Below, one piece after another: positions 16,901 to 62,519 of a DNA stretch of 64,000 bases (position 1 is its first letter; each line of letters opens with the position of its first letter). The notes under the pieces are model-generated. The model searched no databases and was not told where the DNA came from. It saw nothing but the letters and a program-made list of their open reading frames with translations. The DNA is from Patagioenas fasciata (taxonomy: Eukaryota): NCBI RefSeq assembly GCF_037038585.1, contig NC_092556.1, positions 386,619-450,618 of the forward strand. The letters run 5' to 3'. Made by a program: the position numbers and the translations under genes.

Positions 16901-18164
16901 TCCCTGGGGGTCCCTATGGGGTCTGGGGGTCCCTATGGGGTCAGGGGGTCCCTGGGGGTCCCTATGGGGTCTGGGGGTCCCTATGGGGTCAGGGGGTCCC
17001 TGGGGGTCCCTATGGGGTCTGGGGGTCCCTATGGGGTCTGGGGGTCCCTGGGGGTCTGGGGGGGATGTGGGGGTCCCTATGGGGTCTGGGGGTCCCTGGG
17101 GGTCCCTATGGGGTCTGGGGGTCCCTATGGGGTCTGGGGGGGATGTGGGGGTCCCTATGGGGTCTGGGGGTCCCTGGGGGTCCCTATGGGGTCTGGGGGT
17201 CCCTATGGGGTCTGGGGGGGATGTGGGGGTCCCTATGGGGTCTGGGGGTCCCTGGGGGTCCCTATGGGGTCTGGGGGTCCCTATGGGGTCTGGGGGGGAT
17301 GTGGGGGTCCCTATGGGGTCTGGGGGTCCCTGGGGGTCCCTATGGGGTCTGGGGGTCCCTATGGGGTCTGGGGGGGATGTGGGGGTCCCTATGGGGTCTG
17401 GGGGTCCCTGGGGGTCCCTATGGGGTCTGGGGGTCCCTATGGGGTCTGGGGGGGATGTGGGGGTCCCTATGGGGTCTGGGGGTCCCTATGGGGTCTGGGG
17501 GTCCCCATGGGGTCTGGGGGGGATGTGGGGGTCCCTATGGGGTCTGGGGGTCCCTATGGGGTCTGGGGGTCCCTGGGGTTCCCTATGGGGTCTGGGGGGG
17601 ATCTGGGGGTCCCTATGGGGTTTGGGGGTCCCTATGGGGTCTGGGGGTCCCTGGGGGTCCCTATGGGGTCTGGGGGTCCCTGGGGTTCCCTATGGGGTCT
17701 GGGGGTCCCTATGGGGTTCCCTATGGGGTCTGGGGGTCCCTATGGGGTTCCCTATGGGGTCTGGGGGGGATCTGGGGGATCTGAAAAGGGACCCAGGCGT
17801 CCGGGCTGCCCCCCCCCCATCCCCCCCAAAAGGGACCCAGGCGTCCGGGGGTGTCCTTCCCCAATTTGGGGTTAATTGGGGGTTAATTGGGGGTCCAGGG
17901 GGGTTAATTGGGGGTAATTGGGGGGTTAATTGAGGGTTAATTGGGGGTAATTGGGGGTAATTGGGGGGTTAATTGAGGGTTAATTGGGGGTAATTGGGGG
18001 TCCAGGGGGGTTAATTGGGGGTAATTGGGGGGTCCAGGGGGGTTAATTGGGGGTCCAGGGGGGTTAATTGGGGGTAATTGGGGGGTCCAGGGGGGTTAAT
18101 CGTGGGTCCAGGGGGGTTAATTAGGAGCTAATGAGGGGTTAATTAACCGGGGTCCCCTCACCAT
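7805..18164 (-). CDS. MYLPF: Fast skeletal muscle myosin regulatory light chain 2 (MLC2f), complete CDS in 7 exons, 168 aa
   Basis: Spliced minus-strand exons: 18162-18164 (ATG only), 14441-14530, 12902-12977, 11877-11981, 10777-10855, 9731-9779, 7805-7909 (includes stop). Translation: [168 protein letters not shown]. This matches my recall of vertebrate MYLPF, and the chicken protein in particular. All junctions are GT..AG with pyrimidine-rich acceptors, and exon phases are consistent. Confidence 0.9.
8070..9720 (+). repeat. G-rich satellite, about 20-22 bp GGGGTTTGGGGTCCCCATGG, about 75 copies (MYLPF intron 6)
   Basis: Direct reading. Confidence 0.9.
9731..9779 (-). CDS. MYLPF: MYLPF exon 6 ([17 protein letters not shown])
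   Basis: Acceptor gtgcccccccag|CCTTGAG and donor GAGGAG|gtgagagc. 49 bp. Confidence 0.9.
9790..11870 (+). repeat. 9-bp periodic C-rich satellite (CCCCATTGG / CCCCATGTC / CCCAATGTC variants) filling MYLPF introns 4 and 5, interrupted by exon 5
   Basis: Direct reading. The minus strand reads GGCCAATGGG repeatedly. Confidence 0.9.
10777..10855 (-). CDS. MYLPF: MYLPF exon 5 ([26 protein letters not shown])
   Basis: Acceptor cgtggggcag|GCGCGG and donor AAGAGCTT|gtgagtgg. 79 bp. Confidence 0.9.
11877..11981 (-). CDS. MYLPF: MYLPF exon 4 ([35 protein letters not shown])
   Basis: Acceptor tctgatag|GCCGGC and donor CTCAAGG|gtgggga. 105 bp. Confidence 0.9.
12060..12900 (+). repeat. About 60 bp repeats built on CCACGCCCC cores (MYLPF intron 3)
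   Basis: Direct reading. Confidence 0.8.
12902..12977 (-). CDS. MYLPF: MYLPF exon 3 ([26 protein letters not shown])
   Basis: Acceptor ccccctgcag|GCGTTC and donor GCCATGG|gtgaggg. This is the EF-hand 1 region. Confidence 0.9.
13080..14440 (+). repeat. Satellite about 30 bp GGGACCCAGGCGTCCGGGGGGGTCTGCCCGA (MYLPF intron 2)
   Basis: Direct reading. Confidence 0.9.
14441..14530 (-). CDS. MYLPF: MYLPF exon 2 ([30 protein letters not shown])
   Basis: Acceptor ..ctgcgcgcag|GCCCCC and donor AAGGAG|gtgggggc on the minus strand. 90 bp, phase 0 to 0. Confidence 0.9.
14560..15800 (+). repeat. Satellite GGGATGTGGGGCAGGATGTGG (8-11 bp GATGTGGGG core) in MYLPF intron 1
   Basis: Direct reading. The same core recurs at 62520-64000. 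Confidence 0.9.
15840..17790 (+). repeat. Satellite about 24-30 bp GGGGTCCCTATGGGGTCTGGGGGTCCCTGG (MYLPF intron 1)
   Basis: Direct reading. Confidence 0.9.
17860..18130 (+). repeat. Satellite GGGGTTAATTGGGGGTAATTG
   Basis: Direct reading. Confidence 0.85.
18162..18164 (-). CDS. MYLPF: MYLPF exon 1 coding part (initiator ATG only, then GTGAGG donor)
   Basis: Minus strand reads gcggccATG|gtgagggg. Exon 2 begins with the codon after Met (APKKAKRR), so exon 1 must end exactly at the ATG. A TATA-like TTTAAAA lies 43 nt upstream. Confidence 0.55.
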
Positions 18165-18245
18165 GGCCGCTCTCGGGGTCTCTGGGGGTCCCGGCCCCTC
18201 CGGGGGTTTTAAAGCCTCTTGGCCCCGCCCCCCCCCCGGACGCCT
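18165..18245 (-). promoter_or_regulatory. MYLPF: MYLPF core promoter: TATA/MEF2-like TTTAAAA (18207-18213 plus-strand coordinates) about 43 nt upstream of the ATG, with a GC box (ggggcgggg) further upstream
   Basis: Minus strand reads gggggcggggccaagaggcTTTAAAAcccccggaggggccgggacccccagagaccccgagagcggccATG|gtgagg. The placement assumes an exon 1 that ends at the ATG. Confidence 0.45.
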
Positions 18246-20000
18246 GGGTCCCTCCCCGAATTCCTAAGAAGTTCGTCCCGAACGCCTGGGTCCCTCCCCC
18301 CCCCCCCCCCCGAATTCCTGGGGCACTGGGGCACTCCTGGGTCCCCCCCGAACTCCTGGGTCCCTGGGGCACTCCTGGGTCCCTCCCGAACTCCTGGGTC
18401 CCCCCGAACTCCTGGGTCCCTGGGGCACTCCTGGGTCCCTTGGGGTACTCCTGGGTCCCTTGGGGCACTCCTGGGTCCCTCCCTGAACTCCTGGGTCCCT
18501 CCCGAACTCCTGGGTCCCCCTGGACTCGTGGGTCCCTTGGGGCACTCCTGGGTCCCTGGGGCACTCCTGGGTCCCTGGGGCACTCCTGGGTCCCTCCGGA
18601 ACTCCTGGGTCCCTGCCGAACTCCTGGGTCCCTTGGGGCACTCCTGGGTCCCCCCCTGAATTCCTGGGTCCCCCCCCGAACTCCTGGGTCCCCCCTCCCC
18701 CCTCCCCGAACTCCTGGGTCCCCCCTCCCCCCTCCCCGAACTCCTGGGTCCCCTCCAAGTGGGGGAGGGGCGGGAGAAGGCGGCAGGTGCAAGGAGGGGG
18801 GAGGGGGGGGAAGAAGGGACCCAGGCGTCCGGGAGGGGACCCAGGAGTTCGGGGGGGAGGGGACCCAGGCGTCCGAGCGCTATTTTTACCCCTTTGTCCC
18901 GATAAGGGCACCCGGGGGGACCCAGGAGTGCGGGAGGGACCCAGGAGTGCCCCAGGAACCCAGGAGTGCCCCAAGGGACCCAGGAGTGCCCCAAGGGACC
19001 CAGGAGTTCAGGGGGGGACCCAGGAGTGCGGGAGGGACCCAGGAGTGCCCCAGGGACCCAGGAGTGCCCCAAGGGACCCAGGAGTTCAGGGGGGGACCCA
19101 GGAGTGCCCCAGGGACCCAGGAGTTCAGGGGGGGACCCAGGAGTGCGGGAGGGACCCAGGAGTTCGGGGAGGGACCCAGGAGTGCCCCAAGGGACCCAGG
19201 AGTTCGGGGAGGGACCCAGGAGTCCGGGAGGGACCCAGGAGGTCGGGGAGGGACCCAGGAGTGCCCCAAGGGACCCAGGAGTTCGGGAGGGGACCCAGGA
19301 GTCCGGGAGGGGACCCAGGAGTCCGGGAGGGACCCAGGAGTCCGGGAGGGACCCAGGAGTTCCGGGAAGGACCCAGGAGTTCGGGAGGGGACCCAGGAGT
19401 CCGGGAGGGGACCCAGGAGTCCGGGAGGGACCCAGGAGTGCCCCAAGGGACCCAGGAGTTCCGGGAAGGACCCAGGAGTTCGGGAGGGGACCCAGGAGTG
19501 CCCCAAGGGACCCAGGCGTTCGGGAGGGACCCAGGAGTTCAGGAAGGGACCCAGGAGTTCGGGGAAGGACCCAGGAGTGCCCCAAGGGACCCAGGAGTTC
19601 GGGAGGGGACCCAGGAGTTCGGGGGGGAAACCAGGGGTCTGCGAGGGACCCAGGAGTTCAGGAAGGGACCCAGAAGTTCAGAGGGACCCAGGAGTTCGGG
19701 GAGGGACCCAGGAGTGCCCCAGGGACCCAGGAGTTCGGGGGAGGGACCCAGGAGTCCGGGAGGGACCCAGGAGTTCAGGAAAGGACCCAGGAGTCCAGGA
19801 GGGGACCCAGGAGTGCCCCAAAGGACCCAGGAGTTCGGGAGGGGACCCAGGAGTTCGGGAGGGACCCAGGAGTTCGGGAAAGGACCCAGGAGTTCGGGAG
19901 GGGACCCAGGAGTGCCCCAAAGGACCCAGGAGTTCGGGAGGGGACCCAGGAGTTCGGGAGGGACCCAGGAGTTCGGGAAAGGACCCAGGAGTTCGGGAGG
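18230..20000. repeat. GGGACCCAGGAGTKCSGG family satellite. Plus orientation is GAACTCCTGGGTCCC / CACTCCTGGGTCCCTGGGG at 18230-18760. The reverse orientation is at 18800-20000
   Basis: Direct reading. The orientation switches near 18770. Confidence 0.9.
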
Positions 20001-20339
20001 AACCCCACATTGCCCCATTTTACACCACAATTTACCCCAACTTCCCGCCATTTTCCGCTCTGGCCCCGCCCCTTCCCGCTCCCCCACTCGCTCCCCATTG
20101 GCTCACGGCACCGCTCGCCCCGCCCACTCGCTCCCCATTGACCCCATCGCCTCGCCCCGCCCACTCGCTCCCCATTGGCTCACGGCGCCGTCCGCCCCGC
20201 CCACTCGCTCCTCATTGACCCCCATCGCCTCGCCCCGCCCACTCGCTCCCCATTGGCTCACGGCGCCGCTCGCCCCGCCCACTCGCTCCCCATTGGTTCT
20301 CCACGTCCTCTCCCTCCCCTCCTCCCATTGATTGAGGCG

Positions 20340-28000: not shown

Positions 28001-28838
28001 CTCAAATTTTCCCCAAATTTCCCTCAAATTTCCCCAAATTTCCCTCACATTTTCCCCAAATTTCCCCTCAAATTTCCCCAAATTTCACTCAAATTTCCCC
28101 CAAATTTCTCCCCAAATTTTCCCCAAATTCCCCCCAATTTTCCCTGAAATTTCCCCAAATTTCCCTCAAATTTTCCCCAAATTTCCCCTCAAATCTCCCC
28201 CAAATTTTCCCCAATTTTTCCCCAAATTTCCCCTCAAATTTCCCCCAATTTTCCCCCAAATTCCCCCCAAATTTCCCCTCAATTTCCCCCAAATCTCCCC
28301 CCAATCTCCCCCCGATCCCCCCCAGTCCGCACTTGTGCGGGGGCAGGGCGGGCCGCTCGTCGTGGCGCTGCGGCTCGGGGGGCTCCTGGGGGTGGGGGGT
28401 GGGGGGCCGGCGGGGCCGGGAGCCCCCCCGCAGGCGCAGGGTCCCGTGCCGCTCGATCAGCTCCAGCAGGCGCCGCAGCTCGGGGGGCGCGGGCGCCCAG
28501 CCCCCGCCTTCCTCCTCCTCCTCCTCCGCGTCGCTGCACGGGACGCACCAATCGGCGCCCTCCTTGTCCCAATCGGCGCCCTCCTTGTCCCAATTAGCGC
28601 CTTCGTTACCGCAATTAGCGCCTTCGTTACCGCAATTAGCGCCCTCGTTACCCCAAGGGGCGTCCTTCCGGTCCCAAGGGGCGTCCTTCCGGTCCCACGG
28701 GGCGTCCTTCCGGTCCCACGGGGCGCCCTTCCGGTCCCACGGGGCGCCCTTCCGGTCCCAAGGGGCGCCCGGGGGGTCCTCGCCGCCCGTCATGGCCGCC
28801 GGGCTGGGGGAGGCGGGAGCGGCGGCCTCGGCCGCCAT
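21851..28838 (-). CDS. PAGR1: PAXIP1-associated glutamate-rich protein 1 (PA1), complete CDS in 3 exons, about 251 aa
   Basis: Minus-strand exons: 28333-28838, 23701-23789, 21851-22011. Translation: [33 protein letters not shown](WDRK..)...[156 protein letters not shown]. From recall it aligns with human PAGR1 over [95 protein letters not shown]. Length and exon number agree with human PAGR1. Confidence 0.82.
22001..22330 (-). other. PAGR1: About 60 bp unit in about 6 copies, each reiterating the PAGR1 exon 3 splice acceptor plus the first about 11 nt of the exon (ACGCGGCCCGGGCCTGCAAC on the plus strand)
   Basis: The motif is at 22001, 22061, 22121, 22181, 22241 and 22301, with a further copy at 22861. 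Only the 22001-22020 copy joins the real exon. Confidence 0.85.
22340..23480 (+). repeat. 13-bp satellite GGGGGAGATTTGG / GGGGAAATTTAGG (PAGR1 intron 2)
   Basis: Direct reading. Confidence 0.9.
23701..23789 (-). CDS. PAGR1: PAGR1 exon 2 ([31 protein letters not shown])
   Basis: Acceptor tctgtgcccag|GCCGCGGG and donor GCGCACG|gtgaggcccc. This matches the human [23 protein letters not shown] block. Confidence 0.85.
23800..27160 (+). repeat. Largest array: about 155 copies of the 21-22 bp C-rich unit CCCCCCAAATCGCCCTCACAAT (alternating CACAAT / CCCAGC variants), 3.4 kb in PAGR1 intron 1
   Basis: Direct reading. Confidence 0.92.
27160..28320 (+). repeat. Satellite CCCCAAATTTCCCYCAAATTT variants (PAGR1 intron 1)
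   Basis: Direct reading. Confidence 0.85.
28333..28838 (-). CDS. PAGR1: PAGR1 exon 1 (Kozak gcagccATGG; ends ..PPH + AA|gtgcgg)
   Basis: The ORF starts at 28838. The acidic [15 protein letters not shown] and [15 protein letters not shown] segments match PAGR1. The donor was chosen as the only GT that keeps frame with exon 2, and it is a weak donor (gtgcgg). An acceptor-like ccctccatttgcag lies immediately 5' of the ATG, which suggests an upstream non-coding exon. Confidence 0.72.
28540..28760 (-). repeat. PAGR1: In-frame coding 21-bp minisatellite inside PAGR1 exon 1: (APWDRKG/D) x5, (NEGANCG) x3, (DKEGADW) x2
   Basis: Plus strand reads ggtcccacggggcgcccttcc x5, ttaccgcaattagcgccttcg x3 and tcccaatcggcgccctccttg x2. 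All units are 21 bp, so the frame is preserved into the conserved DWCVPCSD block. Confidence 0.85.
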
Positions 28839-28969
28839 GGCTGCAAATGGAGGGTTAATTAGCTTAGAACTGCGTTAATTACAGAGAGAAACGGGCGGTT
28901 TCACTCAGGAATGGGTTAATTAATTCATACGTTCCGTTGTTTGCCGTGGAAATGGGGGTTTAGCTTCGG

Positions 28970-29640
28970 AAAGTGGGGGTTTGGCCTCGGAAATTGCGGA
29001 TTTAACCTCAGAAAATGGGGAATTAACCTCAGAAATTGAATTATTTACCTCAAAAAATGGGGGATTTGCCTCACAAAATGGGGATTTACCCTCAGAAAAT
29101 GGGGATTTAACCTCAGAAAATGGGGATTTAACCTCAGAAAATGGGGATTTAGCCTCGGAAAGTGGGGTTTTAGCCTCAGAAAATGGGGGGTTTGCCTCAG
29201 AAATTGAATTGTTTGCCTCAGAAAATGGGGATTTAACCTCAGAAAATGGGGATTTAACCTCAGAAAATGGGGATTTACCTCAGAAAATGGGGATTTAACC
29301 TCAGAAAATGGGGATTTAACCTCAGAAAATGGGGATTTACCTCACAAATTGAATTGTTTACCTCAGAAAATGGGGATTTAACTTGAAAAAATCGGGGTTT
29401 TGCCTCAAAAAATGGGGATTTAACCTCAAAAATTGGGGGATTTGCCTCAGAAAATGGGGATTTAACCTCAGAAAATGGGGGTTTTGCCTCAGAAAATGGG
29501 GATTTAACCTCAAAATGGGTTCATTACCTTACAAATTGAATTATTTACCTCAAAAATCAGGGGATTTAACCTCAGAAAATGGGGATTTAACCTCAGAAAA
29601 TGGGGATTTAGCCTCAGAAAATGTAGATTATTTACCCCCC
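28970..29640 (+). repeat. 22-bp satellite CCTCAGAAAATGGGGATTTAA, about 30 copies
   Basis: Direct reading. Confidence 0.9.
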
Positions 29641-30000
29641 CATTCCCAGTGTGGCCATGCCGGGGGTCACTGGTTCATACTGGGAATGGGGGGGGGGTTA
29701 CTGGGCCATACTGGGAATGGGGGGGGGGTTACTGGGCCATACTGGGAATGGGGGGGGGTTACTGGGCCATACTGGGGGTCACTGGGCCATACTGGGGGGA
29801 ATGGGGGGGGGGTTACTGGGCCATACTGGGGGTTACTGGGCCATACTGGGAATGGGGGGGGGTTACTGGGCCACACTGGGGGGAATGGGGGGGGTTACTG
29901 GGCCATACTGGGGGTTACTGGGCCATACTGGGAATGGGGGGGGGGTTACTGGGCCATACTGGGGGTCACTGGGCCATACTGGGAATGGGGGGGGGGGCGC
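29640..30000 (+). repeat. Satellite CCATACTGGGAATGGGGGGGGTTACTGGG
   Basis: Direct reading. Confidence 0.85.
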
Positions 30001-30480
30001 TGGGCTCCTACCGGCTCCGCTGTGTCCTCAATGGCGGCCGCGTCCCCGCCCTTTCCCCCCGCCCACCTCCCCGGAACCACCCAATCAGCGCCCTCTCCCT
30101 TGCCCGCACCGCCCTCTGATTGGCCGCCCCTTTCCCTTAACCCCGCCCCCTCCCTGGCACGCCCGCTTCCCTGCCGCCTCAGCGCCCCCAGCGCGCATGC
30201 GCCGCCTTCCCCCCTCCCACCACCTCCGCCGGGGTCCACTTCCGGTTGCCGCCGGCGCCATCTTGGAGCCGGGGCGGCGGGAAAAGCGGCGGCGCCGGGG
30301 GGTCCCGCGGGTTCCCCCCCCCCCCAGGGTGGTTTTTGGGGTGAAATCGGCGCTTTTGGGGGCTCCCCCGGAGCGGGGGGGCGGGCGGGGCCCCCCCCCG
30401 GGAGCTGCAGCCGCCGGGGGGGGGGGAAACTTATGGGGCCGGGTCGGGAGCCACAAGTGGAGACAGCGGAGAGAACGGTG
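30000..30480. promoter_or_regulatory. Non-repetitive CpG-island promoter between head-to-head PAGR1 and TAOK2, probably bidirectional. Motifs found: YY1-like gccgccattgagg (minus, about 30030) and gcgccatcttgg (30256-30266); CCAAT 30081-30085; inverted CCAAT 30119-30123; NRF1 GCGCATGCGC 30193-30202; ETS/GABP cacTTCCGG 30237-30245; several GC boxes; a candidate TAOK2 non-coding exon 1 donor AACG|gtgagg at 30477/30478
   Basis: This is the only unique, CpG-dense stretch in the 4.1 kb between the PAGR1 ATG (28838, minus) and the TAOK2 ATG (32941, plus). The GABP + NRF1 + YY1 + NF-Y + SP1 combination is typical of bidirectional promoters. PAGR1 has an acceptor immediately 5' of its ATG and TAOK2 has an acceptor at 32856/57, so both need upstream non-coding exons. 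Confidence 0.5.
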
Positions 30481-30499
30481 AGGGGCGGAATGGGGGGGT

Positions 30500-32820
30500 C
30501 TGGGGCACTTGTGGGGCAGAGCTGGGGTCACTGAGGCACTTATGGGGCCGAATGGGGGGGTTTGGGGCACTTATGGGGAGTTTGGGGGCACTTATGGGGA
30601 GTTTGGGGGCACTTATGGGGCAGAACTTGGGGTACTTATGGGGCAGAACTGGGTCCTCTGGGGCACTTGTGGGGCTGAATGGGGAGCTTTGGGGCACTTA
30701 TGGGGAGTTTGGGGCGCTTATGGGGCAGAACTTGGGCTCTCGTGGCACTTAGGGGGCAGAACTGGGTCCTCTGAGTCACTTATGGGGCAGAATGTGGGGG
30801 TTTGGGGCACTTATGGGGCAGAACGTGGGGTCTTGGGGCACTTAGGGGGCAGAACTGGGTCCTCTGAGTCACTTATGGGGCAGAATGTGGGGGTTTGGGG
30901 CACTTATGGGGCAGAACTTGGGGTCTTGGGGCACTTATGGGGCAGAACTGGGTCCTCTGAGTCACTTATGGGGCAGAATGTGGGGGTTTGGGGCACTTAT
31001 GGGGCAGAACTGGGTCCTCTGGGTCACTTATGGGGCTGAATGGGGAGGTTTGGGTCAGTTATGGGGAGTTTGGGGGCACTTATGGGGCAGAACCCGAGTC
31101 ACTTATGGGGCTGAACTGGGTCCTCTGGGGCACTTATGGGGCAGGATCTGGGTTTGCTGGTCACTTATGGGGCACAACCTGAGTCACTTATGGGGCAGGA
31201 TTTGGTTCCCAGGTTCACTTATGGGGCAGGATTAGGACCCCTGAATCACTTATGGGGCAGGATTTGGATCCGTGGGTCACTTATGGGGCAGGATTTAGTC
31301 CCCAGGTTCACTTATGGGGCAGGATTAGGACCCCTGAATCAGTTATGGGGCAGGATTTGGATCCGTGGGTCACTTATGGGGCAGGATTTGATCCCATGGA
31401 TCACTTATGGGGCAGAACCTGGGTCACTTATGGGGTAGGAATTGGTTCTCTGAGTCACTTATGGGTCAGAATTTGGTCTCCTGAGTCACTTATGGGGCAG
31501 AATTGGGACCCCTGGGTCACTTATGGGGCAGAACCTGAGTCACTTATGGGTCAGGATTTAGTGCCTTGGGTCACTTATGGGGCTGCCTTGGGGCCCCAGG
31601 TTCACTTATGGGTCAGGATTTGGACCCCTCAGTCACTTATGGGGCTGAGTTGGGACCCCTGGGTCACTTATGGGGCAGAACCTGGGTCACTTATGGGTCA
31701 GAATTCGGTCTCCTGAGTCACTTATGGGGCAGAATTGGGACCCCTGGGTCACTTATGGGGCAGAACCTGAGTCACTTATGGGTCAGAATTCGGTCTCCTG
31801 AGTCACTTATGGGGCAGAATTGGGACCCCTGGGTCACTTATGGGGCAGAACCTGGGTCACTTATGGGTCAGGATTTGGTTCCCAGGTTCACCTATGGGTC
31901 AGGATTTGAATCCGTGGGTCACTTATGGGTCAGGATTTGAATCCCTGGGTCACTTATGGGTCAGGATTAGGACCCCTGTGTCACTTATGGGGCAGAACCT
32001 GGGTCACATATGGGTCAGGATTAGGACCCCTGAATCACTTATGGGTCAGGATTTGGATCCGTGGGTCACTTATGGGTCAGGATTTGGATCCGTGGGTCAC
32101 TTATGGGTCAGGATTTGGATCCGTGGCTCACTTATGGGTCAGGATTAGGACCCCCGTGTCACTTATGGGGCAGAACCTGGGTCACTTATGGGTCAGGATT
32201 TGGTTCCCAGGTTCACCTATGGGTCAGGATTTGAATCAGTGGGTCACTTATGGGTCAGGATTTGAATCCCTGGGTCACTTATGGGTCAGGATTAGGACCC
32301 CCGTGTCACTTATGGGGCAGAACCTGGGTCACCTATGGGTCAGGATTAGGACCCCTGAATCACTTATGGGTCAGGATTTGGATCCGTGGGTCACTTATGG
32401 GTCAGGATTTGGATCCGTGGGTCACTTGTGGGTCAGGATTTGAATCCGTGGGTCACTTATGGGTCAGGATTAGGACCCCCGTGTCACTTATGGGGCAGAA
32501 CCTGGGTCACTTATGGGTCAGGATTTGGTTCCCAGGTTCACCTATGGGTCAGGATTTGAATCAGTGGGTCACTTATGGGTCAGGATTTGAATCCCTGGGT
32601 CACTTATGGGTCAGGATTAGGACCCCCGTGTCACTTATGGGGCAGAACCTGGGTCACCTATGGGTCAGGATTAGGACCCCTGAATCACTTATGGGTCAGA
32701 ATTTGAATCCGTGGGTCACTTATGGGTCAGGATTTGGATCCGTGGGTCACTTATGGGTCAGGATTTGGATCCGTGGGTCACTTATGGGTCAGGATCAGGA
32801 CCCCCGTGTCACTTATGGGG
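30500..32820 (+). repeat. Satellite about 40 bp CACTTATGGGGCAGRAYYTGGGTCCTCTGAGT, two subfamilies, 2.3 kb upstream of the TAOK2 ATG
   Basis: Direct reading. Confidence 0.9.
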
Positions 32821-32940
32821 CAGCACCTGACCCCCGTGTCCCTCCTTCCCCCCCCAGGCCGCCTCCCGCCTGCCCCACGGCTCCCAGCTGGGACCTCTGC
32901 CGACGCGTGGGGCCGCCCCATAGATTCCGTGGGTCGCGCG

Positions 32941-33051
32941 ATGCCGTCGCTCAGCCCCACGGATCCCGGGTTGTTCCGCCCCGAAGACCCCGAGACCCTG
33001 TTTGGGGACCTATGGGAGATCGGGCACGGCAGCTTCGGCGCCGTCTACTCC
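32941..33051 (+). CDS. TAOK2: TAOK2-like coding exon 1
   Basis: gcgcgATGCCG (purine at -3) through TACTCC|gtgagt. Encodes [37 protein letters not shown], including the glycine-loop GxGxxG. Confidence 0.85.
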
Positions 33052-42000: not shown

Positions 42001-44491
42001 CATTGATTCCCGTTATCCCCATTATCCCATTAATTACCCCATTGATCCCCATTATCCTGTTAATTATCCCCATTGATTCCCGTTATCCCCATTATCCCAT
42101 TAATTACCCCATTGATCCCCATTATCCCATTAATTATCCCCATTGATTCCCGTTATCCCCATTATCCCATTAATTACCCCATTTATCCCCATTATCCCAT
42201 TAATTACCCCACTGATCCCCATTATCCTGTTAATTATCCCCATTGATTCCCATTGTCCTTATTAACCCATTAATTACCTCATTGATCCCCGTTATCCTGT
42301 TAATTATCCCCATTGATTCCGGTTATCCCCATTATCCCGTTAATTACCCCATTGATCGCCATTATACTGTTAATTATCCCCATTGATTCCCATTGTCCCT
42401 ATTATCCCATTAATTGCCCCATTGATCCCCATTATCCCATTAATTACCCCATTCATTCCCATTGTCCCCATTATCCCATTAATTACCCCATTGATTCCCA
42501 TTACCCCATTAATTACCCCCATTGATCCCTATTATTCCATTAATTAGCCCCATTGATCCCCATTATCTCCATTATCCCGTTAATTATTGATCCCCATTGA
42601 TCTCAATTACCCCGTTAATTACCCCATTGATCTCCATTATCCCATTAATTACCCCATTGATCCCCATTATCCCATTAATTACCCCATTGATCCCTGCTAT
42701 CCCAGTAATTACCCCCATTGATCCCCATTGACCCCATTATCCCATTAATTACCCCTATTGACCCCCATTGATCCCATTAATTACCCCCGTTGATCCCATT
42801 AATTATCCGTGTTATCCCATTAGTTACCCCATTCATACCCATTATCCCATTAATTACCCCATTGATCCCCGTTACCCCGTTAATTACCCCATTAATTACC
42901 CCATTACCCCGTTAATTACCCCATTAATTACCCCATTACCCCGTTAATTACCCCATTAATTACCCCATTGCCCCGTTAATTACCCCGTTGACCCCGTTAC
43001 CCATCGATCCCATTCATTCCTTCATCCCCCCCATTCCCCCCTTCTCCCCTCACCCCATTGGCTCACTCTGCCCTTTGGCCCCGCCCCTTTCTCCAGCACC
43101 ACTTCCTGCAGAGGCCCCGCCCCCCGCGCGTGCTCCTGGATCTGATTGGCCGAGCCCAGGCGGCCGCGCGGGCCCTGGACCAGCTGCACCTGCGGCCAAT
43201 CAGGAAGCTGCTGCTCCCGGAAGGCCCCGCCCCCGGCCCCGCCCACCAGGTTCGTGGGGGGCGATTTTGGGGACGTTTTGGGGGAATTTGGGGACATTTT
43301 GGTCACCTTTCCGGACCCATTGTCCCTGTGGGGTGGCCCCATTGGCCCCATTGACCCCATGGGGCATCCCCAAGGTCCCGTTGACCCCATTGGGGTCCCC
43401 ATTGACCCCCATGTCCCCATTGTCCCCATTGGGGTCCCCATTGACCCCTTGGGCTCCGTTGACCCCCCAGGTGTCCTCATTGACCTCATTGTCCCCATTG
43501 GGGTCCCCATTGTCCCCTTGGGCTCCATTGACCCCCCATGTCCCCGTTGTCCCCAGTGTCACCTCCTGAGCTCCCATTGTCCCCATTGACCCCACAAGGT
43601 CCTATTGACCCCCATGTCCCCATTGTCCCGTTGGGTTCCATTGACCCCATGGGACATCCCCAAGGTCCCATTACCCCTATTGGGGTCCCCCATTGTCCCC
43701 CATTGTCCCCATATCCCCATTGGGGTTCCCATTGTCCCCTTGGGCCCCATTGACCCCATGGGACGTCCCCAAGGTCCCATTGTCCCCATTGACCCCATTG
43801 TCCCCATGGGACGTCCCCATTGACCCCACAAGGTCGCATTGACCCCCATGTCACCATTGGGGTCCCCATTGTCCCCTTGGGCCCCATTGACCCCATGGGA
43901 CGTCCCATTGTCCCCATTGACCCCACTGACCCCATGGGACGTCCCATTGTCCCCATTGACCCCATTGACCCCATGGGACGTCCCATTGTCCCCATTGACC
44001 CCATTGACCCCATGGGACGTCCCATTGTCCCCATTGACCCCATGGGACGTTCCATTGTCCCCTTGGGCCCCATTGACCCCATGGGACGTCCCCAAGGTCC
44101 CATTGTCCCCATTGTCCCCATGGGATGTCCCATTGTCCCCATTGACCCCACAAGGTCCCATTGACCCCATTTGTCCCCATTGGGGTCCCCATTGTCCCCT
44201 TGGGCCCCATTGACCCCATGGGACGTCCCCAAGGTCCCATTGACCCCATGGGACGTCCCCGATGTCCCCATTGACCCCATGGGATGTCCCCAATGTCCCC
44301 AGGGGGCGGAGCCCGCCGGCAGCCCCGAGCGCAGCCATTGGCCGCCCAGCGCGTCCGTCAGCGAATCGAGCGGCAGCAGCGGTGCCAGTGCGGCCAATGA
44401 CGACGGTGACGGTGACGACGGTGACGGTGACGACGGTGACGGTGACGACGGGGATGAGGAAGGGCCCCCATTGGCCGCCCCGCACCCGCCC
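32941..44491 (+). CDS. TAOK2: TAO-family Ser/Thr kinase (TAOK2-like), N-terminal 11 coding exons covering the kinase domain through the acidic region; C-terminal exons not found
   Basis: Plus-strand exons: 32941-33051, 33134-33205, 33295-33396, 34372-34417, 34493-34589, 36389-36502, 37711-37802, 40038-40131, 41093-41174, 43097-43249, 44303-44491. All are GT..AG and phases are consistent. The first exon starts at an acceptor at 32858, with 5'UTR before the ATG at 32941. Translation begins [361 protein letters not shown]...[12 protein letters not shown]. It is collinear with my recall of the human TAOK1/2/3 kinase domain. The acidic tract followed by EEGP and the 16p11.2 synteny favour TAOK2. 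Confidence 0.82.
33134..33205 (+). CDS. TAOK2: TAOK2-like coding exon 2 ([24 protein letters not shown])
   Basis: Acceptor ccatcag|GCCCGG and donor GATGAG|gtaatg. VAIKK contains the catalytic lysine. Confidence 0.85.
33295..33396 (+). CDS. TAOK2: TAOK2-like coding exon 3 ([34 protein letters not shown])
   Basis: Acceptor ccccccag|AAATGG and donor GCCTGG|gtgagc. Confidence 0.85.
33400..34340 (+). repeat. Satellite about 21 bp GACCCATAAGTGTGGGGCAGG with an about 125-160 bp higher-order period (TAOK2 intron 3)
   Basis: Direct reading. Confidence 0.85.
34372..34417 (+). CDS. TAOK2: TAOK2-like coding exon 4 ([15 protein letters not shown])
   Basis: Acceptor ctctccctag|CTGGCC and donor GGAGG|gtgagtgc. 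Confidence 0.82.
34493..34589 (+). CDS. TAOK2: TAOK2-like coding exon 5 ([33 protein letters not shown])
   Basis: Acceptor ccccacaag|TGCACAAG and donor CCACAG|gtcagc. Confidence 0.82.
34590..35700 (+). repeat. About 125 bp unit in about 8 copies (CCCCATAGRTCCCGCC blocks plus TTGTGTTGGTTTCTCTGGGTCTTTTCTTGCTTGTGCTGGTCGG) in TAOK2 intron 5
   Basis: Copies are near 34670, 34805, 34945, 35100, 35220, 35340, 35465 and 35640. Confidence 0.85.
35700..36370 (+). repeat. Satellite CCCCACTGACCCCGCCCCACAGCTCCTG (TAOK2 intron 5)
   Basis: Direct reading. Confidence 0.85.
36389..36502 (+). CDS. TAOK2: TAOK2-like coding exon 6 ([10 protein letters not shown]...DFGSA...VGTPYW)
   Basis: Acceptor ctgcccccag|GGACGTG and donor CTACTG|gtgagaga. 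Carries the HRDVKAGN and DFG motifs. Confidence 0.85.
36510..36970 (+). repeat. 63-bp unit in 7 copies (ACCCCCAAGTGTGGGGCTGGGACCCCCAAGTGTGGGGCTGGGACCATAGAGTGGCTGGGAGTGGGGGTTGTG), starting 8 nt after the TAOK2 exon 6 donor
   Basis: Direct reading. Confidence 0.9.
36970..37700 (+). repeat. C-rich low-complexity repeat CCCTGCCCCACACCCC (TAOK2 intron 6)
   Basis: Direct reading. Confidence 0.8.
37711..37802 (+). CDS. TAOK2: TAOK2-like coding exon 7 ([30 protein letters not shown])
   Basis: Acceptor ctgtccccag|GATGGCC and donor GAGCTGG|gtgagacg. Carries the APE motif. Confidence 0.85.
37810..38500 (+). repeat. 12-13 bp satellite CTGACCCACAGC / CCTGACCCATAGC (TAOK2 intron 7)
   Basis: Direct reading. 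Confidence 0.85.
38640..40020 (+). repeat. 23-bp satellite CTCTGCCCCACACATCCCCCCCG (38640-39120), then 16-17 bp CTCAGCCCCACCCCCCG in about 55 copies (39120-40020) (TAOK2 intron 7)
   Basis: Direct reading. Confidence 0.9.
40038..40131 (+). CDS. TAOK2: TAOK2-like coding exon 8 ([32 protein letters not shown])
   Basis: Acceptor ctgccccccag|CGGAGCGG and donor CCAATG|gtgagcgt. Confidence 0.85.
40140..41080 (+). repeat. GAACTCCTGGGTCCC / GCACTCCTGGGTCCCTGGG satellite (TAOK2 intron 8)
   Basis: Direct reading. Same family as 441-1310. Confidence 0.9.
41093..41174 (+). CDS. TAOK2: TAOK2-like coding exon 9 ([27 protein letters not shown])
   Basis: Acceptor ggggtcccag|GTCCCCG and donor CTGCAG|gtgcct. 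Matches the human [24 protein letters not shown] block. Confidence 0.78.
41240..43000 (+). repeat. 60-bp AT-richer satellite in about 28 copies, CCCCATTGATTCCCGTTATCCCCATTATCCCATTAATTACCCCATTGATCCCCATTATCCTGTTAATTATC (TAOK2 intron 9)
   Basis: Direct reading. Confidence 0.9.
43097..43249 (+). CDS. TAOK2: TAOK2-like coding exon 10 ([51 protein letters not shown])
   Basis: Acceptor ctttctccag|CACCAC and donor CACCAG|gttcgt. Matches the human [42 protein letters not shown] block. Confidence 0.8.
43300..44290 (+). repeat. 9-bp-based satellite CCCATTGACCCCATGGGACGTCCCATTGTCC (TAOK2 intron 10)
   Basis: Direct reading. Confidence 0.85.
44303..44491 (+). CDS. TAOK2: TAOK2-like coding exon 11 (Ser-rich then (DGDGDD)n acidic tract, ..[12 protein letters not shown])
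   Basis: Acceptor aatgtccccag|GGGGCGGAG and donor CCGCCC|gtgagtcc. Corresponds to the human [21 protein letters not shown] region. Confidence 0.65.
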
Positions 44492-44639
44492 GTGAGTCCA
44501 GGAGGGTCCCAAAAACCCCCAAAATGGGTTAAAACGCCCCAAAAAGGCCCCAAAATGTGGTTGAGACCCCAAAGAAACCTCTGGGAGGGATTAAAGGGTC
44601 GGGGGCTCTTTAAGAAACTGGTGGGTGGGGCTTAGGGGG

Positions 44640-44890
44640 TGGGGTTTGGGCTTGCGGCCAATCAGCTGCTGAGGAGGCCATGGGGGGCTGTTTAAGGACA
44701 AGGGGGCGGGGCTTGAGGGGGGGGCGGGGCTTGGGGGGGGTGGAGTTTGGGGGGTTTGTAGAACCTGATTGGTCAGAGGGTTCTGGGCGTCTGATTGGTC
44801 AGAAGGCCCTGGGAGGTCCATATAAGGTGGTGGGCGGGGTCTGAGAGGGGATTGGACAAGAGCTTAAAGGGGGCGGAGCTAAAGGGGTTG
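44640..44890. promoter_or_regulatory. Promoter-like motif cluster: CCAAT gcggCCAATcag about 44656, two inverted CCAAT (tgATTGGtcag, twice), a CArG/TATA element CCATATAAGG about 44818-44827, and GC boxes gggggcggggc
   Basis: Unique sequence downstream of the last TAOK2-like exon found. Motifs only; no transcript evidence. Confidence 0.25.
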
Positions 44891-45449
44891 TAGTTGTTCC
44901 CTATGGAGGGGGGGGAGCGTTTGGGGCCCCCAAAAACCCCTAAATGAGCCCAAAATTGACCCCGAAACCCACGGGGGGGGCTGGAAATGGCCCAAAATAC
45001 CCAAAAAGTGCTGAAAACGCCCCAAACCCACCCAAAATAGCCCAAAAAACACCCCAAGAACACCCCCAAAAATCCCTCAGATCAGCCTGAAAAGGGCTCG
45101 AAAATCACACAAACTGACCCAAAATGGACCCAAAATGGACCCAAAACAGCGCAAATTCAACCCAAAAATGCGAGGGGGTTCAAGGGGGGGTTTGTGCCCC
45201 TATTTCCAGATTTCGGGTGCAATTTTGGGGTGATCTGTGTGGTTATTGGAGCGTTTTGGGGTCTCGGAGCCCCAAAAGCGTGGGATTTTGCCCCAATTTC
45301 AGGCGGAGGACCAGGAGCCTCCTCCGGTCGGCGCTAACGAGGCTGCGGAGCAATTAGCGGCGCGGTTAACGAAGCCGCGCGAGCGGGGCGGCCCCGGAGG
45401 CGACCCGGGGACCCCAAATGCCCGGCGTTTCGCCCCAAATTCCAGCGTT

Positions 45450-46090
45450 TCCCGCCCAAATTCCCTCCGGCTTCACCCCCATTGCCCCCCCAGTTCCCCC
45501 CATTCCACCCCCAATTCCCCCTATTCCACCCCCAATTTCTCCCCCATTTCCCCCCCAGATTTCCCCCCCAGTTCCCCCATTGGTCCCCCCAGTTCCACCC
45601 CCACTTTCTCCCCCATTGATCCCCCCACTGATCCCCCCATTGATCCCCCCACTGATCCCCCCATTGATTCCCCCATTGATCCCCCCAGTTCCCCCATTAA
45701 GCCCCCCAGTTTGACCCCCAAAAATCCCCCCAGTTCCCCCATTGATCCCCCCAATTCCACCCCCACTTTCCCCCCCATGAACCCCATTGATCCCCCCATT
45801 GGCCCCATTGACCCCATTGGCCCCATTGACCCCATTGGCCCCATTGACCCCATTGATCCCATTGACCCCATTGGCCCCATTGATCCCATTGGCCCCATTG
45901 GCCCCATTGACCCCATTGACCCCATTGGTCCAATTGGCCCCATTCATCCCATCGGCCCCATTCATCCCATTGGCTCCATTGGCCTCATTGATCCCATTGG
46001 CCCCATTGACCCCATTGGCCCCATTGACCCCATTGACCCCATCGACCCCATCGACCCCATCGACCCCCTCGACCCCATTGCCCCCCTCGA
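45450..46090 (+). repeat. 6-12 bp satellite CCCCATTGATCC / CCATTGGCCCCATTGACC
   Basis: Direct reading. Confidence 0.85.
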
Positions 46091-59400: not shown

Positions 59401-59472
59401 CTGAAGCCTGTGGCCAATTAACGAGCGGGTTTAATTGCACGCGCGGGGGCGGGGCGGGGCGGGGGCGGGGCC

Positions 59473-59720
59473 TCAGAGGCGCCGGATCTTCATCTCGCTC
59501 TTGCGCAGCGAGTAGTAGAAGCCCTTCCACTGGGCCCAGTTGATGCCGTTGGCGTAGGAGAGGTGGGCGCCCCCCAGGTAGAAGCCGTTGAGGTTGGAGA
59601 AGTGGCAGCTGCGGAACCACCAGGCGCCCGAGGAGAGGGCGGCGCAGTTCTGCACGTACAGGTCCTGGTCGCGGTCGAAGGTGGAGAACTTCTGCCCGTT
59701 GTGGTAGCTCAGGGAGTCCC
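59473..59720 (-). CDS. MFAP4: MFAP4-like last exon ([39 protein letters not shown]...EMKIRRL*)
   Basis: Acceptor caccccccag|GGGACTCC on the minus strand. The stop codon TGA is at 59473-59475. Confidence 0.88.
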
Positions 59721-62510: not shown

Positions 62511-62519
62511 CTGCAGGTG

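What the first reader, a model, noticed from the sequence alone, without database searches (positions are those of the whole stretch)
28839..32940. Head-to-head PAGR1 and TAOK2 separated by 4.1 kb, with one CpG-island promoter (30000-30300) carrying the bidirectional-promoter motif set
In human these two genes are not adjacent. Here their ATGs face away from each other. Both coding first exons are preceded by strong acceptors (ccctccatttgcag|ccATGG for PAGR1, and cccccccag at 32856 for TAOK2), which implies upstream non-coding exons. The only unique CpG-dense sequence between them contains motifs for GABP/ETS (CACTTCCGG), NRF1 (GCGCATGCGC), two YY1-like sites, two CCAAT boxes and SP1. The rest of the interval is three satellites. 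This is the classic composition of a shared bidirectional promoter.
Basis: partly seen in the sequence, partly recalled or inferred. Interest (0 to 1): 0.6.

Follow-up and report, generated by a model that had tools for sequence, protein, structure and literature searches.

The report
Probable shared PAGR1/TAOK2 pigeon promoter
In a band-tailed pigeon microchromosome, PAGR1 and TAOK2 point away from each other across one small CpG island that looks like an ordinary two-way promoter. The island is TAOK2's old promoter, and PAGR1 seems to have been moved next to it in the pigeon lineage; transcript data are still needed to prove that both genes start there.

Summary
The window is Patagioenas fasciata: my spliced PAGR1 model is 100% identical to the NCBI protein. 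The PAGR1 ATG (28838, minus strand) and TAOK2 ATG (32941, plus strand) face apart, 4.1 kb from each other. Between them lie three tandem-repeat arrays and one unique 485-bp CpG island (29997-30481; GC 0.76, CpG o/e 0.72).

The set never co-occurs in 5000 shuffles. Each motif falls in a block that is invariant across three pigeon genera.

The island is bounded by two outward-facing splice donors, on the minus strand at 30012 and on the plus strand at 30477. Both ATG exons have conserved acceptors.

The same CCAAT-SP1-ETS-YY1 layout and exon-1 donor lie upstream of TAOK2 in a honeyguide and a parrot, where the neighbour is not PAGR1. The island is therefore TAOK2's ancestral promoter.

Ostrich PAGR1 is not next to TAOK2. 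It also has a CpG-island donor and a strong acceptor 3 nt before its ATG. A second Columba annotation splices PAGR1 from the island at the donor I predicted.

Verdict: a likely (about 0.6) but unproven bidirectional promoter, and an ordinary member of a known class. No transcription-start data were reachable.

The parts
28333..28840 (-). PAGR1 ATG-containing exon. Coding runs from 28838 to 28333, donor CAA|GTGCGG. The two bases CC (28840-28839) precede the ATG.
   Evidence: The spliced model built from this exon is 100% identical to the NCBI P. fasciata PAGR1 protein. It hits Pfam PAXIP1_C.
28841..28949 (-). 3' end of the putative PAGR1 intron 1. It contains the acceptor AG (28842-28841), the pyrimidine tract ccctccattt and a unique AT-rich stretch.
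   Evidence: A pyrimidine tract followed by CAG sits 2 nt 5' of the ATG in Patagioenas, Columba and Caloenas, while the sequence further upstream is satellite. Pyrimidine content is 0.69, the same as proven TAOK2 acceptors. Ostrich has an even stronger acceptor 3 nt 5' of its ATG.
28950..29623 (.). Satellite A: 21-bp unit AAATGGGGATTTAACCTCAGA, about 32 copies. Lies within the putative PAGR1 intron 1.
   Evidence: Tandem Repeats Finder. The same unit family lies at the same place in Columba and Caloenas.
29662..29996 (.). Satellite B: GGGGGTTACTGGGCCATACT-type units of 20/31/51/84 nt. Lies within the putative PAGR1 intron 1.
   Evidence: Tandem Repeats Finder. It is much longer in Caloenas (L002 6616-8497).
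29997..30481 (.). The unique CpG island (GC 0.758, CpG o/e 0.72, no TATA), proposed as the bidirectional promoter plus two non-coding first exons.
   Evidence: It aligns at 79-80% identity over about 500 bp to the same position in Columba and Caloenas.
30003..30019 (-). Minus-strand splice-donor block CGGAGCCG|GTAGGAGCC. The last exon base is 30012. It marks the proposed end of PAGR1 non-coding exon 1. An alternative donor, GAG|GTGGGC, ends at 30067.
   Evidence: This is the longest invariant run in the left part of the island across three pigeons. Its PWM score is 6.3, against 6.6-8.8 for proven donors. The Columba gene model P0003 uses exactly this donor. Joining here puts an in-frame stop 7 codons 5' of the ATG.
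30031..30038 (+). YY1-like ATGGCGGC. Read in the PAGR1 sense it is GCCGCCAT.
   Evidence: Invariant in three pigeons.
30081..30123 (.). Pair of CCAAT boxes: CCAAT at 30081 (+) and ATTGG at 30119 (inverted).
   Evidence: Both are conserved in the pigeons. Counterparts exist in Pezoporus and Indicator.
30137..30148 (-). SP1/KLF-type GC box TTAACCCCGCCC.
   Evidence: Invariant in three pigeons. TAACCCCGCC is conserved in all five birds aligned.
30193..30202 (.). NRF1 palindrome GCGCATGCGC.
   Evidence: The only copy in the 64-kb window, P=0.0006 in shuffles. Invariant in three pigeons. Absent at the aligned place in Indicator.
30237..30245 (-). Strict GABP/ETS consensus CCGGAAGTG, written CACTTCCGG on the plus strand.
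   Evidence: the only CCGGAAGT in the window. Invariant in the pigeons and present in Indicator. The consensus is as used in PMC2077898.
30255..30267 (+). YY1 site GCGCCATCTTGGA.
   Evidence: CGCCATCTTGG is conserved in all five birds, upstream of TAOK2 in each.
30270..30292 (+). Block CGGGGCGGCGGGAAAAGCGGCGG, a GC box plus an E2F-like GCGGGAAA.
   Evidence: A 23-nt invariant run in three pigeons.
30245..30477 (+). Putative TAOK2 non-coding exon 1. The start is not known; about 30245 is a guess from the ETS/YY1 positions. It ends at the donor ACG|GTGAGG, last exon base 30477.
   Evidence: This is the best plus-strand donor in the island (8.8; the next best is 4.0) and is identical to a proven PAGR1 donor. 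The donor and the exon blocks (GGTGAAATCGGCG, GGAGCTGCAGCCGCCGGGGG) are conserved in pigeons, Indicator and Pezoporus.
30478..32857 (+). Putative TAOK2 intron 1, almost entirely satellite C (30482-32829; 31-bp GGGGCACTTATGGGGCAG... family).
   Evidence: Tandem Repeats Finder. In Pezoporus the same interval is about 43 nt and holds one copy of the unit.
32858..33051 (+). TAOK2 exon 2: 83 nt of 5'UTR, then the ATG at 32941 and 37 codons. Donor TCC|GTGAGT.
   Evidence: tblastn with human TAOK2 recalled from memory. The acceptor CAG|GCCG(C/G)CTCCC with its pyrimidine tract (0.94) is conserved in Patagioenas and Caloenas, and the first exon bases in Columba too. The same ATG is annotated in Columba (P0076) and Caloenas.

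Best explanation
The 485-bp CpG island at 29997-30481 is a TATA-less, housekeeping-type promoter region that serves both genes.

**TAOK2 side.** Transcription probably starts near the ETS/YY1 pair, around 30240-30260. That start position is inferred. It would produce a non-coding exon ending at 30477, spliced across a 2.4-kb satellite-filled intron to 32858, which lies 83 nt before the ATG.

**PAGR1 side.** Transcription probably starts on the other strand inside the same island, somewhere between about 30040 and 30200. That range is also inferred. It would produce a short non-coding exon ending at 30012 (or 30067), spliced across a 1.2-kb satellite-filled intron to 28840, which lies 2 nt before the ATG. 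If both exons are real, the two starts are less than 465 bp apart, so NRF1, GABP, YY1, NF-Y and SP1 sites would sit in the promoter of both genes.

**Origin.** By origin the island is TAOK2's own promoter. PAGR1 was placed beside it by rearrangement in the pigeon lineage or somewhat earlier. PAGR1 already had a non-coding first exon and an acceptor just before its ATG.

**Shown:** the gene identities and orientation, the island, the motifs and their conservation, the conserved splice signals, and the synteny differences between species.

**Inferred:** the start sites, use of the splice sites, and factor binding.
For: - **Anatomy and statistics:**
- **Real arrangement:** the same PAGR1(-)/island/TAOK2(+)/CDIPT(+) order occurs in independent assemblies of Columba livia (two assemblies) and Caloenas nicobarica.
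- **Motif conservation:** the invariant runs of at least 8 nt in the three-pigeon alignment coincide with the minus-strand donor block, the YY1-like site, a CCAAT box, SP1, NRF1, ETS, YY1 and the GC/E2F block. The ETS-YY1-E2F core is 91% invariant, against about 40% in the flanking satellite.
- **Outward-facing donors at both edges of the island:** the plus-strand donor at 30477 scores 8.8. The minus-strand donors at 30012 and 30067 score 6.3 and 7.3. Proven donors in the window score 6.6-8.8.
- **Acceptors before both ATGs:** both are conserved in pigeons and have pyrimidine tracts as good as proven acceptors.
- **Little room for a local PAGR1 promoter:** in Columba the satellite runs to about 40 nt from the PAGR1 ATG.
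- **Independent gene model:** the Columba model P0003 joins the island to the PAGR1 ATG exon at the same GAGCCG|GTAGGAGCC donor.
- **Ostrich PAGR1:** a CpG island with seven GCGCATGCGC copies, a CAG|GTGAGC donor, and a very strong acceptor 3 nt before the ATG. This suggests the same two-exon 5' structure there, read from sequence only.
- **TAOK2 promoter in other bird orders:** the architecture and the exon-1 donor are conserved in Indicator and Pezoporus.
- **GC skew:** it changes sign inside the island, from -0.46 at 30000-30199 to +0.28 or more beyond 30300, as expected for divergent transcription.
- **Literature:** the motif set equals the five motifs over-represented in divergent promoters, and the strict GABP site is reported to confer reverse-direction activity (PMC2077898).
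Against: - No transcript, CAGE or chromatin evidence was available. No Logan or RNA-derived protein for either pigeon gene appeared in the protein searches.
- CAGCCATGG before the PAGR1 ATG is also a near-consensus Kozak context, so the AG there is partly expected without splicing.
- Satellites on avian dot chromosomes also fill intergenic DNA (PMC12954441). 'Satellite, therefore intron' is not a safe argument.
- The P0003 model may be ab initio, and its ATG inside the island is Columba-specific.
- Two minus-strand donors compete (30012 and 30067).
- The GC-skew signal is confounded by the G-rich satellites on both flanks.
- The motif set is typical of CpG-island promoters in general, including one-way ones such as TAOK2's in other birds.
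Confidence: 0.6

Rival explanations
1. The island is TAOK2's promoter only. PAGR1 is merely a neighbour and starts transcription close to its own ATG, either in the 110-bp unique AT-rich stretch at 28840-28949 or inside satellite A. The minus-strand donor and the 'acceptor' are not used.
For: The same island architecture serves TAOK2 in Indicator and Pezoporus without PAGR1 next to it. CAGCCATGG doubles as a Kozak context. Dot-chromosome intergenic DNA is also repeat-filled. The left 84 bp of the island is only 54% invariant overall.
Against: The 17-nt donor block is the longest invariant run in the left part of the island. The pyrimidine tract plus CAG is kept in three genera although the surrounding sequence is not. 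In Columba only about 40 nt of non-satellite DNA precede the ATG. Ostrich PAGR1 shows the same pattern of exon-1 donor plus acceptor just before the ATG. The P0003 model uses the donor. The stretch 28840-28949 has no promoter-like motifs or CpG enrichment apart from the coding part.
Confidence: 0.25
2. There are two juxtaposed promoters rather than one shared promoter. The rearrangement carried PAGR1's own first exon and a remnant of its NRF1-type promoter with it. This would account for the left edge of the island and possibly the NRF1 site. It was fused to TAOK2's ETS/YY1 promoter, so each gene is driven mainly by its own elements.
For: Ostrich PAGR1 has an NRF1-rich promoter with seven GCGCATGCGC copies. 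The pigeon NRF1 site has no counterpart at the aligned place in Indicator. The leftmost 84 bp does not align convincingly to the TAOK2 islands of Indicator or Pezoporus.
Against: Sequence homologous to the TAOK2 islands of other birds (CCAAT, inverted CCAAT, TAACCCCGCC) extends left to about 30081, beyond the NRF1 site. At most about 85 bp could therefore be PAGR1-derived. Alignment of the pigeon left edge to the ostrich PAGR1 upstream region is not convincing. With starts less than 465 bp apart the two would still meet the operational definition of a bidirectional promoter.
Confidence: 0.2
3. The adjacency is an assembly artefact, caused by a false join through satellite DNA.
For: 84% of the window is tandem repeat, which is a known assembly hazard.
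Against: The same order, orientation and island occur in four assemblies of three genera (and the window itself). The window contains no Ns.
Confidence: 0.02

Closest known systems
Mammalian bidirectional (divergent) CpG-island promoters with GABP, NRF1, YY1, NF-Y and SP1 sites (Trinklein et al. 2004 and Lin et al. 2007, cited from memory; Collins et al. 2007, PMC2077898)
   Same: Head-to-head genes around one TATA-less CpG island. All five over-represented motifs are present, including the strict GABP consensus CCGGAAGTG. The inferred start sites are less than 1 kb apart.
   Different: Start sites and two-way activity are not measured here. Both genes reach the island only through satellite-filled first introns, so the ATGs are 4.1 kb apart. 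The pair is lineage-specific, whereas many mammalian pairs are anciently conserved.
TAOK2 5' CpG island in other birds (Indicator indicator L003 8540-9080; Pezoporus flaviventris L004 9540-9930)
   Same: The order CCAAT, inverted CCAAT, TAACCCCGCC, (C)CTTCC(GG), CGCCATCTTGG is kept. So are the exon-1 blocks and the CGGTGAGG/CGGTAAGG donor.
   Different: The divergent neighbour there is an SSF (SLC5A-like) gene or a trypsin-like gene, not PAGR1. There is no GCGCATGCGC at the aligned position in Indicator. In Pezoporus the 'intron' is about 43 nt.
Ostrich PAGR1 5' region (L009 9230-10003)
   Same: A CpG island with NRF1 palindromes and a YY1-like AAAATGGCGGCGG. A putative non-coding exon 1 ends in a good donor. 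An acceptor lies immediately before the ATG (3 nt in ostrich, 2 nt in pigeon).
   Different: It stands alone downstream of a same-strand CUB/Sushi gene and is not head to head with TAOK2. The intron is about 250 nt and free of satellite. It has seven NRF1 sites, against one in the pigeon island.
'Sequence stuttering' of avian dot-chromosome genes (PMC12954441)
   Same: Introns and flanks are filled with imperfect short tandem repeats of local origin. There are exon-derived repeats and coding 21-bp repeats in PAGR1. 84% of the window is tandem repeat.
   Different: That work concerns chicken and does not address promoters or this gene pair. It contains no mention of TAOK2, PAGR1 or 'bidirectional'.

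Membership tests
Bidirectional (divergent) promoter, operational definition of Trinklein/Collins | Two genes on opposite strands, arranged head to head | tested here: met
   PAGR1 is on the minus strand with its ATG at 28838. TAOK2 is on the plus strand with its ATG at 32941.
Bidirectional (divergent) promoter, operational definition of Trinklein/Collins | [quoted passage not shown] | tested here: inconclusive
   There are no start-site data. If the two conserved outward-facing donors (30012 and 30477) are used, both starts lie within 465 bp. The ATGs themselves are 4.1 kb apart.
Bidirectional (divergent) promoter, operational definition of Trinklein/Collins | CpG island, usually without a TATA box | tested here: met
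   GC 0.758 and CpG o/e 0.72 over 485 bp. No TATAAA.
Bidirectional (divergent) promoter, operational definition of Trinklein/Collins | Enrichment of GABP, NRF1, YY1, CCAAT/NF-Y and SP1 motifs | tested here: met
   All five are present. They co-occur in 0 of 5000 shuffles and are conserved in three pigeon genera. The motif list is from PMC2077898.
Bidirectional (divergent) promoter, operational definition of Trinklein/Collins | Promoter activity in both orientations, or co-expression of the pair | not testable with these tools
   This needs CAGE, RNA-seq or reporter assays.
PAGR1 (PA1; Pfam PAXIP1_C) | PAXIP1_C domain and orthology to annotated PAGR1 | tested here: met
   Pfam PF15364 at E=2.3e-20. 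100% identity to NCBI P. fasciata PAGR1. A profile search recovers PAGR1 across tetrapods.
TAOK2 (as opposed to TAOK1 or TAOK3) | TAO-type kinase domain closest to TAO2, with 16p11.2-type neighbours | tested here: met
   Rat TAO2 scores 456 bits against 436 for TAO3. The nearest hit is named TAO2 in Caloenas, and zebra finch and chicken hits are also named TAO2. CDIPT, PAGR1 and MYLPF are neighbours. The bit-score margin is small and no tree was built.
Avian dot-chromosome 'sequence stuttering' | Introns or flanks filled by imperfect tandem repeats of local origin | tested here: met
   84% of the window is masked by Tandem Repeats Finder. The unit of the TAOK2 intron-1 satellite exists as a single copy at the same place in Pezoporus. 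The description is in PMC12954441.

The most novel reading that the evidence does not exclude
TAOK2's ancient CpG-island promoter may act as a reusable docking site on a highly unstable avian microchromosome. Rearrangements with breakpoints in the 'stuttering' satellites beside it have placed different genes head to head with TAOK2 in different bird orders: PAGR1 in pigeons, an SLC5A-like gene in a honeyguide and a trypsin-like gene in a parrot. In pigeons, PAGR1 would have given up its own NRF1-rich promoter, still seen in ostrich, and would now be driven by the antisense side of TAOK2's island. That would be a datable, natural case of a new bidirectional gene pair arising by promoter capture.
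Probability: 0.3. Interest if true: 0.5.

Novelty: new member of a known kind. Interest (0 to 1): 0.27.

Why it matters
If confirmed, this adds one more bidirectional CpG-island promoter. The class already covers about 10% of human genes, so the finding is routine in itself.

Its modest extra value is evolutionary. PAGR1 is not head to head with TAOK2 in ostrich, a lizard or human. The island is demonstrably TAOK2's older promoter. The locus could therefore show how a relocated gene comes to share a neighbour's promoter, on a chromosome type where satellites have replaced almost all non-functional DNA. That replacement leaves exons, splice sites and promoter motifs standing out as the only unique, conserved sequence.

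It is also useful for annotation. Several public models at this locus are wrong or truncated: satellite is translated as protein, and start codons differ between assemblies.

Tried and rejected
- **Transcript evidence, not reachable.** Exact-protein look-ups failed for P. fasciata PAGR1, zebra finch TAO2 isoform X5 and stork PAGR1 X2. No RNA-derived (Logan) proteins from pigeons appeared for either gene. Gene ranges in the look-ups are CDS extents, so they say nothing about UTR exons.
- **Uninformative loci.** Bambusicola L005 is AT-rich, macrochromosome-like sequence, so it is probably another TAO paralogue. In Calidris L006 only 155 bp of contig precede the gene, so the upstream neighbour cannot be seen.
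- **Another gene or RNA in the island, rejected.** The long stop-free frames in the island have no Pfam hit. Rfam gave only sub-threshold miRNA-like hits inside satellites.
- **N-terminal extension of PAGR1 into the island, rejected.** It would hit an in-frame stop with either donor, and there is no in-frame upstream ATG. The P0003 start codon in the island is Columba-specific.
- **Failed pattern search.** A degenerate DNA pattern for WCVPC, meant to find PAGR1 in other loci, found nothing. Even Columba differs at that motif (WCVPR).
- **PAGR1 search in L003 and L004, incomplete.** These loci never appeared in the sandbox, so tblastn for PAGR1 could not be run on them. I only read the DNA between the annotated neighbours and TAOK2 by eye and saw no PAGR1-like GC-rich exon.
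- **Homology of the pigeon left edge to ostrich PAGR1 exon 1, not convincing**.
- **Splice scoring is approximate.** It used a weight matrix recalled from memory, so the scores are relative only. Two of my reference acceptor coordinates were misplaced, and I ignored them.

Full report
**Source and genes.** The window comes from the band-tailed pigeon, Patagioenas fasciata. I built a three-exon PAGR1 model on the minus strand (28838-28333, 23789-23701, 22011-21851). It is 100% identical over its full 251 residues to the NCBI protein of that species and carries the Pfam PAXIP1_C domain. Tandem Repeats Finder masks 84% of the 64 kb, and the unmasked islands are essentially exons. From those I read the gene order MYLPF(-), PAGR1(-), TAOK2(+), CDIPT(+), MFAP4-like(-). 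The kinase is a TAO-family kinase. It scores slightly better against rat TAO2 (456 bits) than TAO3 (436 bits). Its closest database relative, at 88% identity, is named TAO2 in Caloenas. It sits among genes whose human counterparts lie in 16p11.2.

**The observation.** All the sequence statements hold.
- The PAGR1 ATG is at 28838 and follows ccctccatttgCAG|CC.
- The TAOK2 ATG is at 32941 and lies 83 nt after ccttcccccccCAG|G, so the exon starts at 32858.
- Between the ATGs (4103 bp) there are three tandem arrays: 28950-29623, 29662-29996 and 30482-32829.
- There is one unique CpG-dense block, 29997-30481, with GC 0.758 and CpG o/e 0.72. The satellites have o/e of about 0-0.3.
- The block holds CACTTCCGG (30237), GCGCATGCGC (30193), GCCATCTT (30257), ATGGCGGC (30031), CCAAT (30081) and its inverse (30119), eight GGGCGG, an E2F-like GCGGGAAA (30277), and no TATA box.
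- The NRF1 palindrome and CCGGAAGT are each unique in the 64 kb. The joint occurrence of NRF1, ETS, YY1 and two CCAAT boxes was never reached in 5000 dinucleotide-preserving shuffles of the island.
- The human order PAGR1, MVP, CDIPT, SEZ6L2, ASPHD1, KCTD13, TMEM219, TAOK2 is documented (PMC7945342).

**The arrangement is real and conserved within pigeons.** Columba livia (two assemblies) and Caloenas nicobarica show the same PAGR1(-)/TAOK2(+) pair, followed by CDIPT(+) where the locus extends that far. The island aligns at 79-80% identity over about 500 bp in both, while the flanking satellites do not align. In the three-species alignment, the invariant runs of at least 8 nt fall on these elements:
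- a 17-nt block at the left edge, GGCTCCTACCGGCTCCG (30003-30019);
- the YY1-like site;
- a CCAAT box;
- the TTAACCCCGCCC GC box;
- the NRF1 palindrome;
- the ETS site;
- the YY1 site;
- a 23-nt GC/E2F block.

The ETS-YY1-E2F core is 91% invariant, against about 40% for the adjoining satellite.

**Splice signals.** The island is bounded by two outward-facing donors.
- *Plus strand.* ACG|GTGAGG (last exon base 30477) is by far the best donor in the island. It scores 8.8 on an approximate matrix, the next best scores 4.0, and it is identical to a proven PAGR1 donor.
- *Minus strand.* CCG|GTAGGA (30012, score 6.3) lies within the invariant 17-nt block, exactly where unique sequence gives way to satellite. 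A second candidate, GAG|GTGGGC (30067, score 7.3), exists. Proven donors in the window score 6.6-8.8.
- *TAOK2 acceptor.* It has a 94% pyrimidine tract and is conserved in Patagioenas and Caloenas; the first exon bases (GCCGCCTCCCGCC) are also conserved in Columba, whose acceptor lay just outside the aligned stretch.
- *PAGR1 acceptor.* A pyrimidine tract plus CAG sits 2 nt before the ATG in all three pigeons, although the sequence just upstream differs and soon becomes satellite. In Columba only about 40 nt separate the satellite from the ATG.
- *Reading frame.* Joining either minus-strand donor to 28840 gives an in-frame stop before the ATG and no in-frame upstream ATG. The upstream exon would therefore be non-coding.

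**Independent support for a PAGR1 upstream exon.**
- A second Columba livia annotation (P0003, locus tag Q9966_016764) has a PAGR1 model whose first exon lies in the island and ends at ...GAGCCG|gtaggagcc. That is the same donor. The model is spliced across the 20-mer satellite to an acceptor 38 nt before the conserved ATG. I do not know whether that model used RNA evidence.
- In ostrich, PAGR1 is not next to TAOK2; a CUB/Sushi gene lies upstream on the same strand. Its ATG is nonetheless preceded by a textbook acceptor, tgtttcccccccccccccattcttttcag|GAAATG. About 250 nt further upstream there is a CAG|GTGAGC donor at the end of a CpG island holding seven GCGCATGCGC palindromes.

For ostrich this rests on splice signals read from sequence, not on transcripts.

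**Origin of the island.** In Indicator indicator and Pezoporus flaviventris, TAOK2 is again followed by CDIPT. Its divergent upstream neighbour there is an SSF (SLC5A-like) gene and a trypsin-like gene respectively, not PAGR1. Upstream of TAOK2 in both species lies a CpG island with the same order of elements:
- CCAAT, inverted CCAAT and TAACCCCGCC;
- CTTCC(GG) and CGCCATCTTGG;
- the blocks GGTGAAATCGGCG and GGAGCTGCAGCCGCCGGGGG;
- a CGGTGAGG/CGGTAAGG donor.

From about 30081 rightwards, the pigeon island is therefore TAOK2's ancestral promoter and first exon. In Pezoporus the interval between this donor and the ATG exon is only about 43 nt. It contains one copy of GGGGCACTTATGGGGCAG, the unit that has expanded to 2.4 kb in the pigeon. 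In the lizard Phrynocephalus, the TAO kinase and PAGR1 lie on the same contig nine locus tags apart. The PAGR1-TAOK2 adjacency is thus derived within birds.

**Interpretation.** The island works as a bidirectional, housekeeping-type CpG-island promoter. A TAOK2 non-coding exon runs rightwards to 30477 and a short PAGR1 non-coding exon runs leftwards to 30012, each spliced over a satellite-filled intron. The motif set is exactly the five motifs reported as over-represented in divergent promoters. The strict GABP consensus present here has been reported to induce reverse-direction activity when introduced into one-way promoters (PMC2077898). GC skew changes sign within the island.

The TAOK2 half is well supported; I put it at about 0.85. 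The PAGR1 half is weaker, for three reasons:
- CAGCCATGG is also a good Kozak context.
- Dot-chromosome satellites fill intergenic DNA as well as introns (PMC12954441).
- No transcript or start-site data could be reached.

The main rival (about 0.25) is that the island serves TAOK2 only and PAGR1 starts near its own ATG. A variant of the main reading is that PAGR1 brought a remnant of its own NRF1-type promoter, so the island is composite rather than truly shared. An assembly artefact is excluded by four concordant assemblies.

**Novelty.** Bidirectional CpG-island promoters of this composition are common and well described, so this is a new member of a known kind. The satellites correspond to the recently described 'sequence stuttering' of avian dot chromosomes. 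The only moderately interesting angle is evolutionary: an old TAOK2 promoter has different head-to-head partners in different bird orders, and PAGR1 apparently docks onto it in pigeons.

Noticed in passing
window 1-64000: 84% of the window is tandem repeat, and the unmasked pieces are almost exactly the exons. This matches the 'sequence stuttering' described for chicken dot chromosomes (PMC12954441), seen here in a pigeon.
   Followed up: partly
window 28548-28767 (minus-strand coding): The first coding exon of PAGR1 contains three in-frame 21-bp minisatellites. They encode heptad repeats: APWDRK(G/D) about 5 times, GNEGANC 3 times and WDKEGAD about 2.5 times. Columba and Caloenas PAGR1 lack these or have different ones (AADY repeats in Caloenas), so the N-terminus is evolving by coding repeat expansion.
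   Followed up: partly
window 32722-32940; L001 6242-8406: The reading frame of the TAOK2 ATG stays open upstream into the satellite, with no in-frame stop from 32722. In Columba, a 567-residue gene with no Pfam hit is annotated across the satellite and the first TAOK2 coding exon. This is probably a mis-annotation that translates satellite.
   Followed up: partly
L004 9928-10013 (Pezoporus): The stretch between the TAOK2 exon-1 donor and the ATG exon is only about 43 nt. It holds one copy of GGGGCACTTATGGGGCAG, the unit of the 2.4-kb pigeon satellite. This is a direct view of the local origin of the array. In the parrot the 5'UTR may be unspliced.
   Followed up: no
L003 5060-6200 and 8250-8540 (Indicator); window 29662-29996; L002 6616-8497: A CCATACTGG-type satellite lies immediately left of the TAOK2 island in both pigeons and the honeyguide. 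In the honeyguide it recurs in inverted orientation on the far side of an SLC5A-like first-exon-like piece (about 7160-7280, minus strand; not in the annotated CDS, which starts at 5005). This hints that rearrangement breakpoints lie in this satellite.
   Followed up: no
L009 9150-9561 (ostrich): The ostrich PAGR1 upstream CpG island has seven perfect GCGCATGCGC palindromes within about 320 bp (0.01 expected by chance) and a long (GA)n run.
   Followed up: partly
window 30433-32922 (after the proposed splice): The putative TAOK2 5'UTR would carry an upstream ORF of 36 codons, from the ATG at 30433 to a TAG at about 32920, ending just before the main ATG. The upstream ATG is present in Columba but not in Caloenas.
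   Followed up: partly
L001 about 9943-10001 versus L008 11077 (Columba): The conserved PAGR1 ATG is out of frame with the NCBI-style Columba model, which starts 58 nt downstream. A poly-C run differs by one base between the two Columba assemblies. This is either an assembly error in a homopolymer or a real frameshift.
   Followed up: no
window 43240-46960: tblastn with human TAOK2 (sequence recalled from memory) stops at residue 325. Beyond that, only a leucine-rich hydrophobic stretch around 46252-46474 resembles, by my reading, the human TAOK2 long-isoform C-terminus. The rest of the protein is very divergent or missing, and the annotated pigeon products are short (457 and 805 residues).
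   Followed up: no
window 1304-1487, 17761-20082, 59437-62516: Other coding-looking unique pieces were seen. One is a possible transmembrane-protein C-terminus at 1304-1487 (minus strand). Unidentified segments lie at 17.7-20.1 kb; Columba has an ARMC5-like gene beyond PAGR1. An MFAP4-like fibrinogen-domain gene on the minus strand at 59-63 kb has a duplicated exon (60206-60287 and 60837-60942).
   Followed up: no
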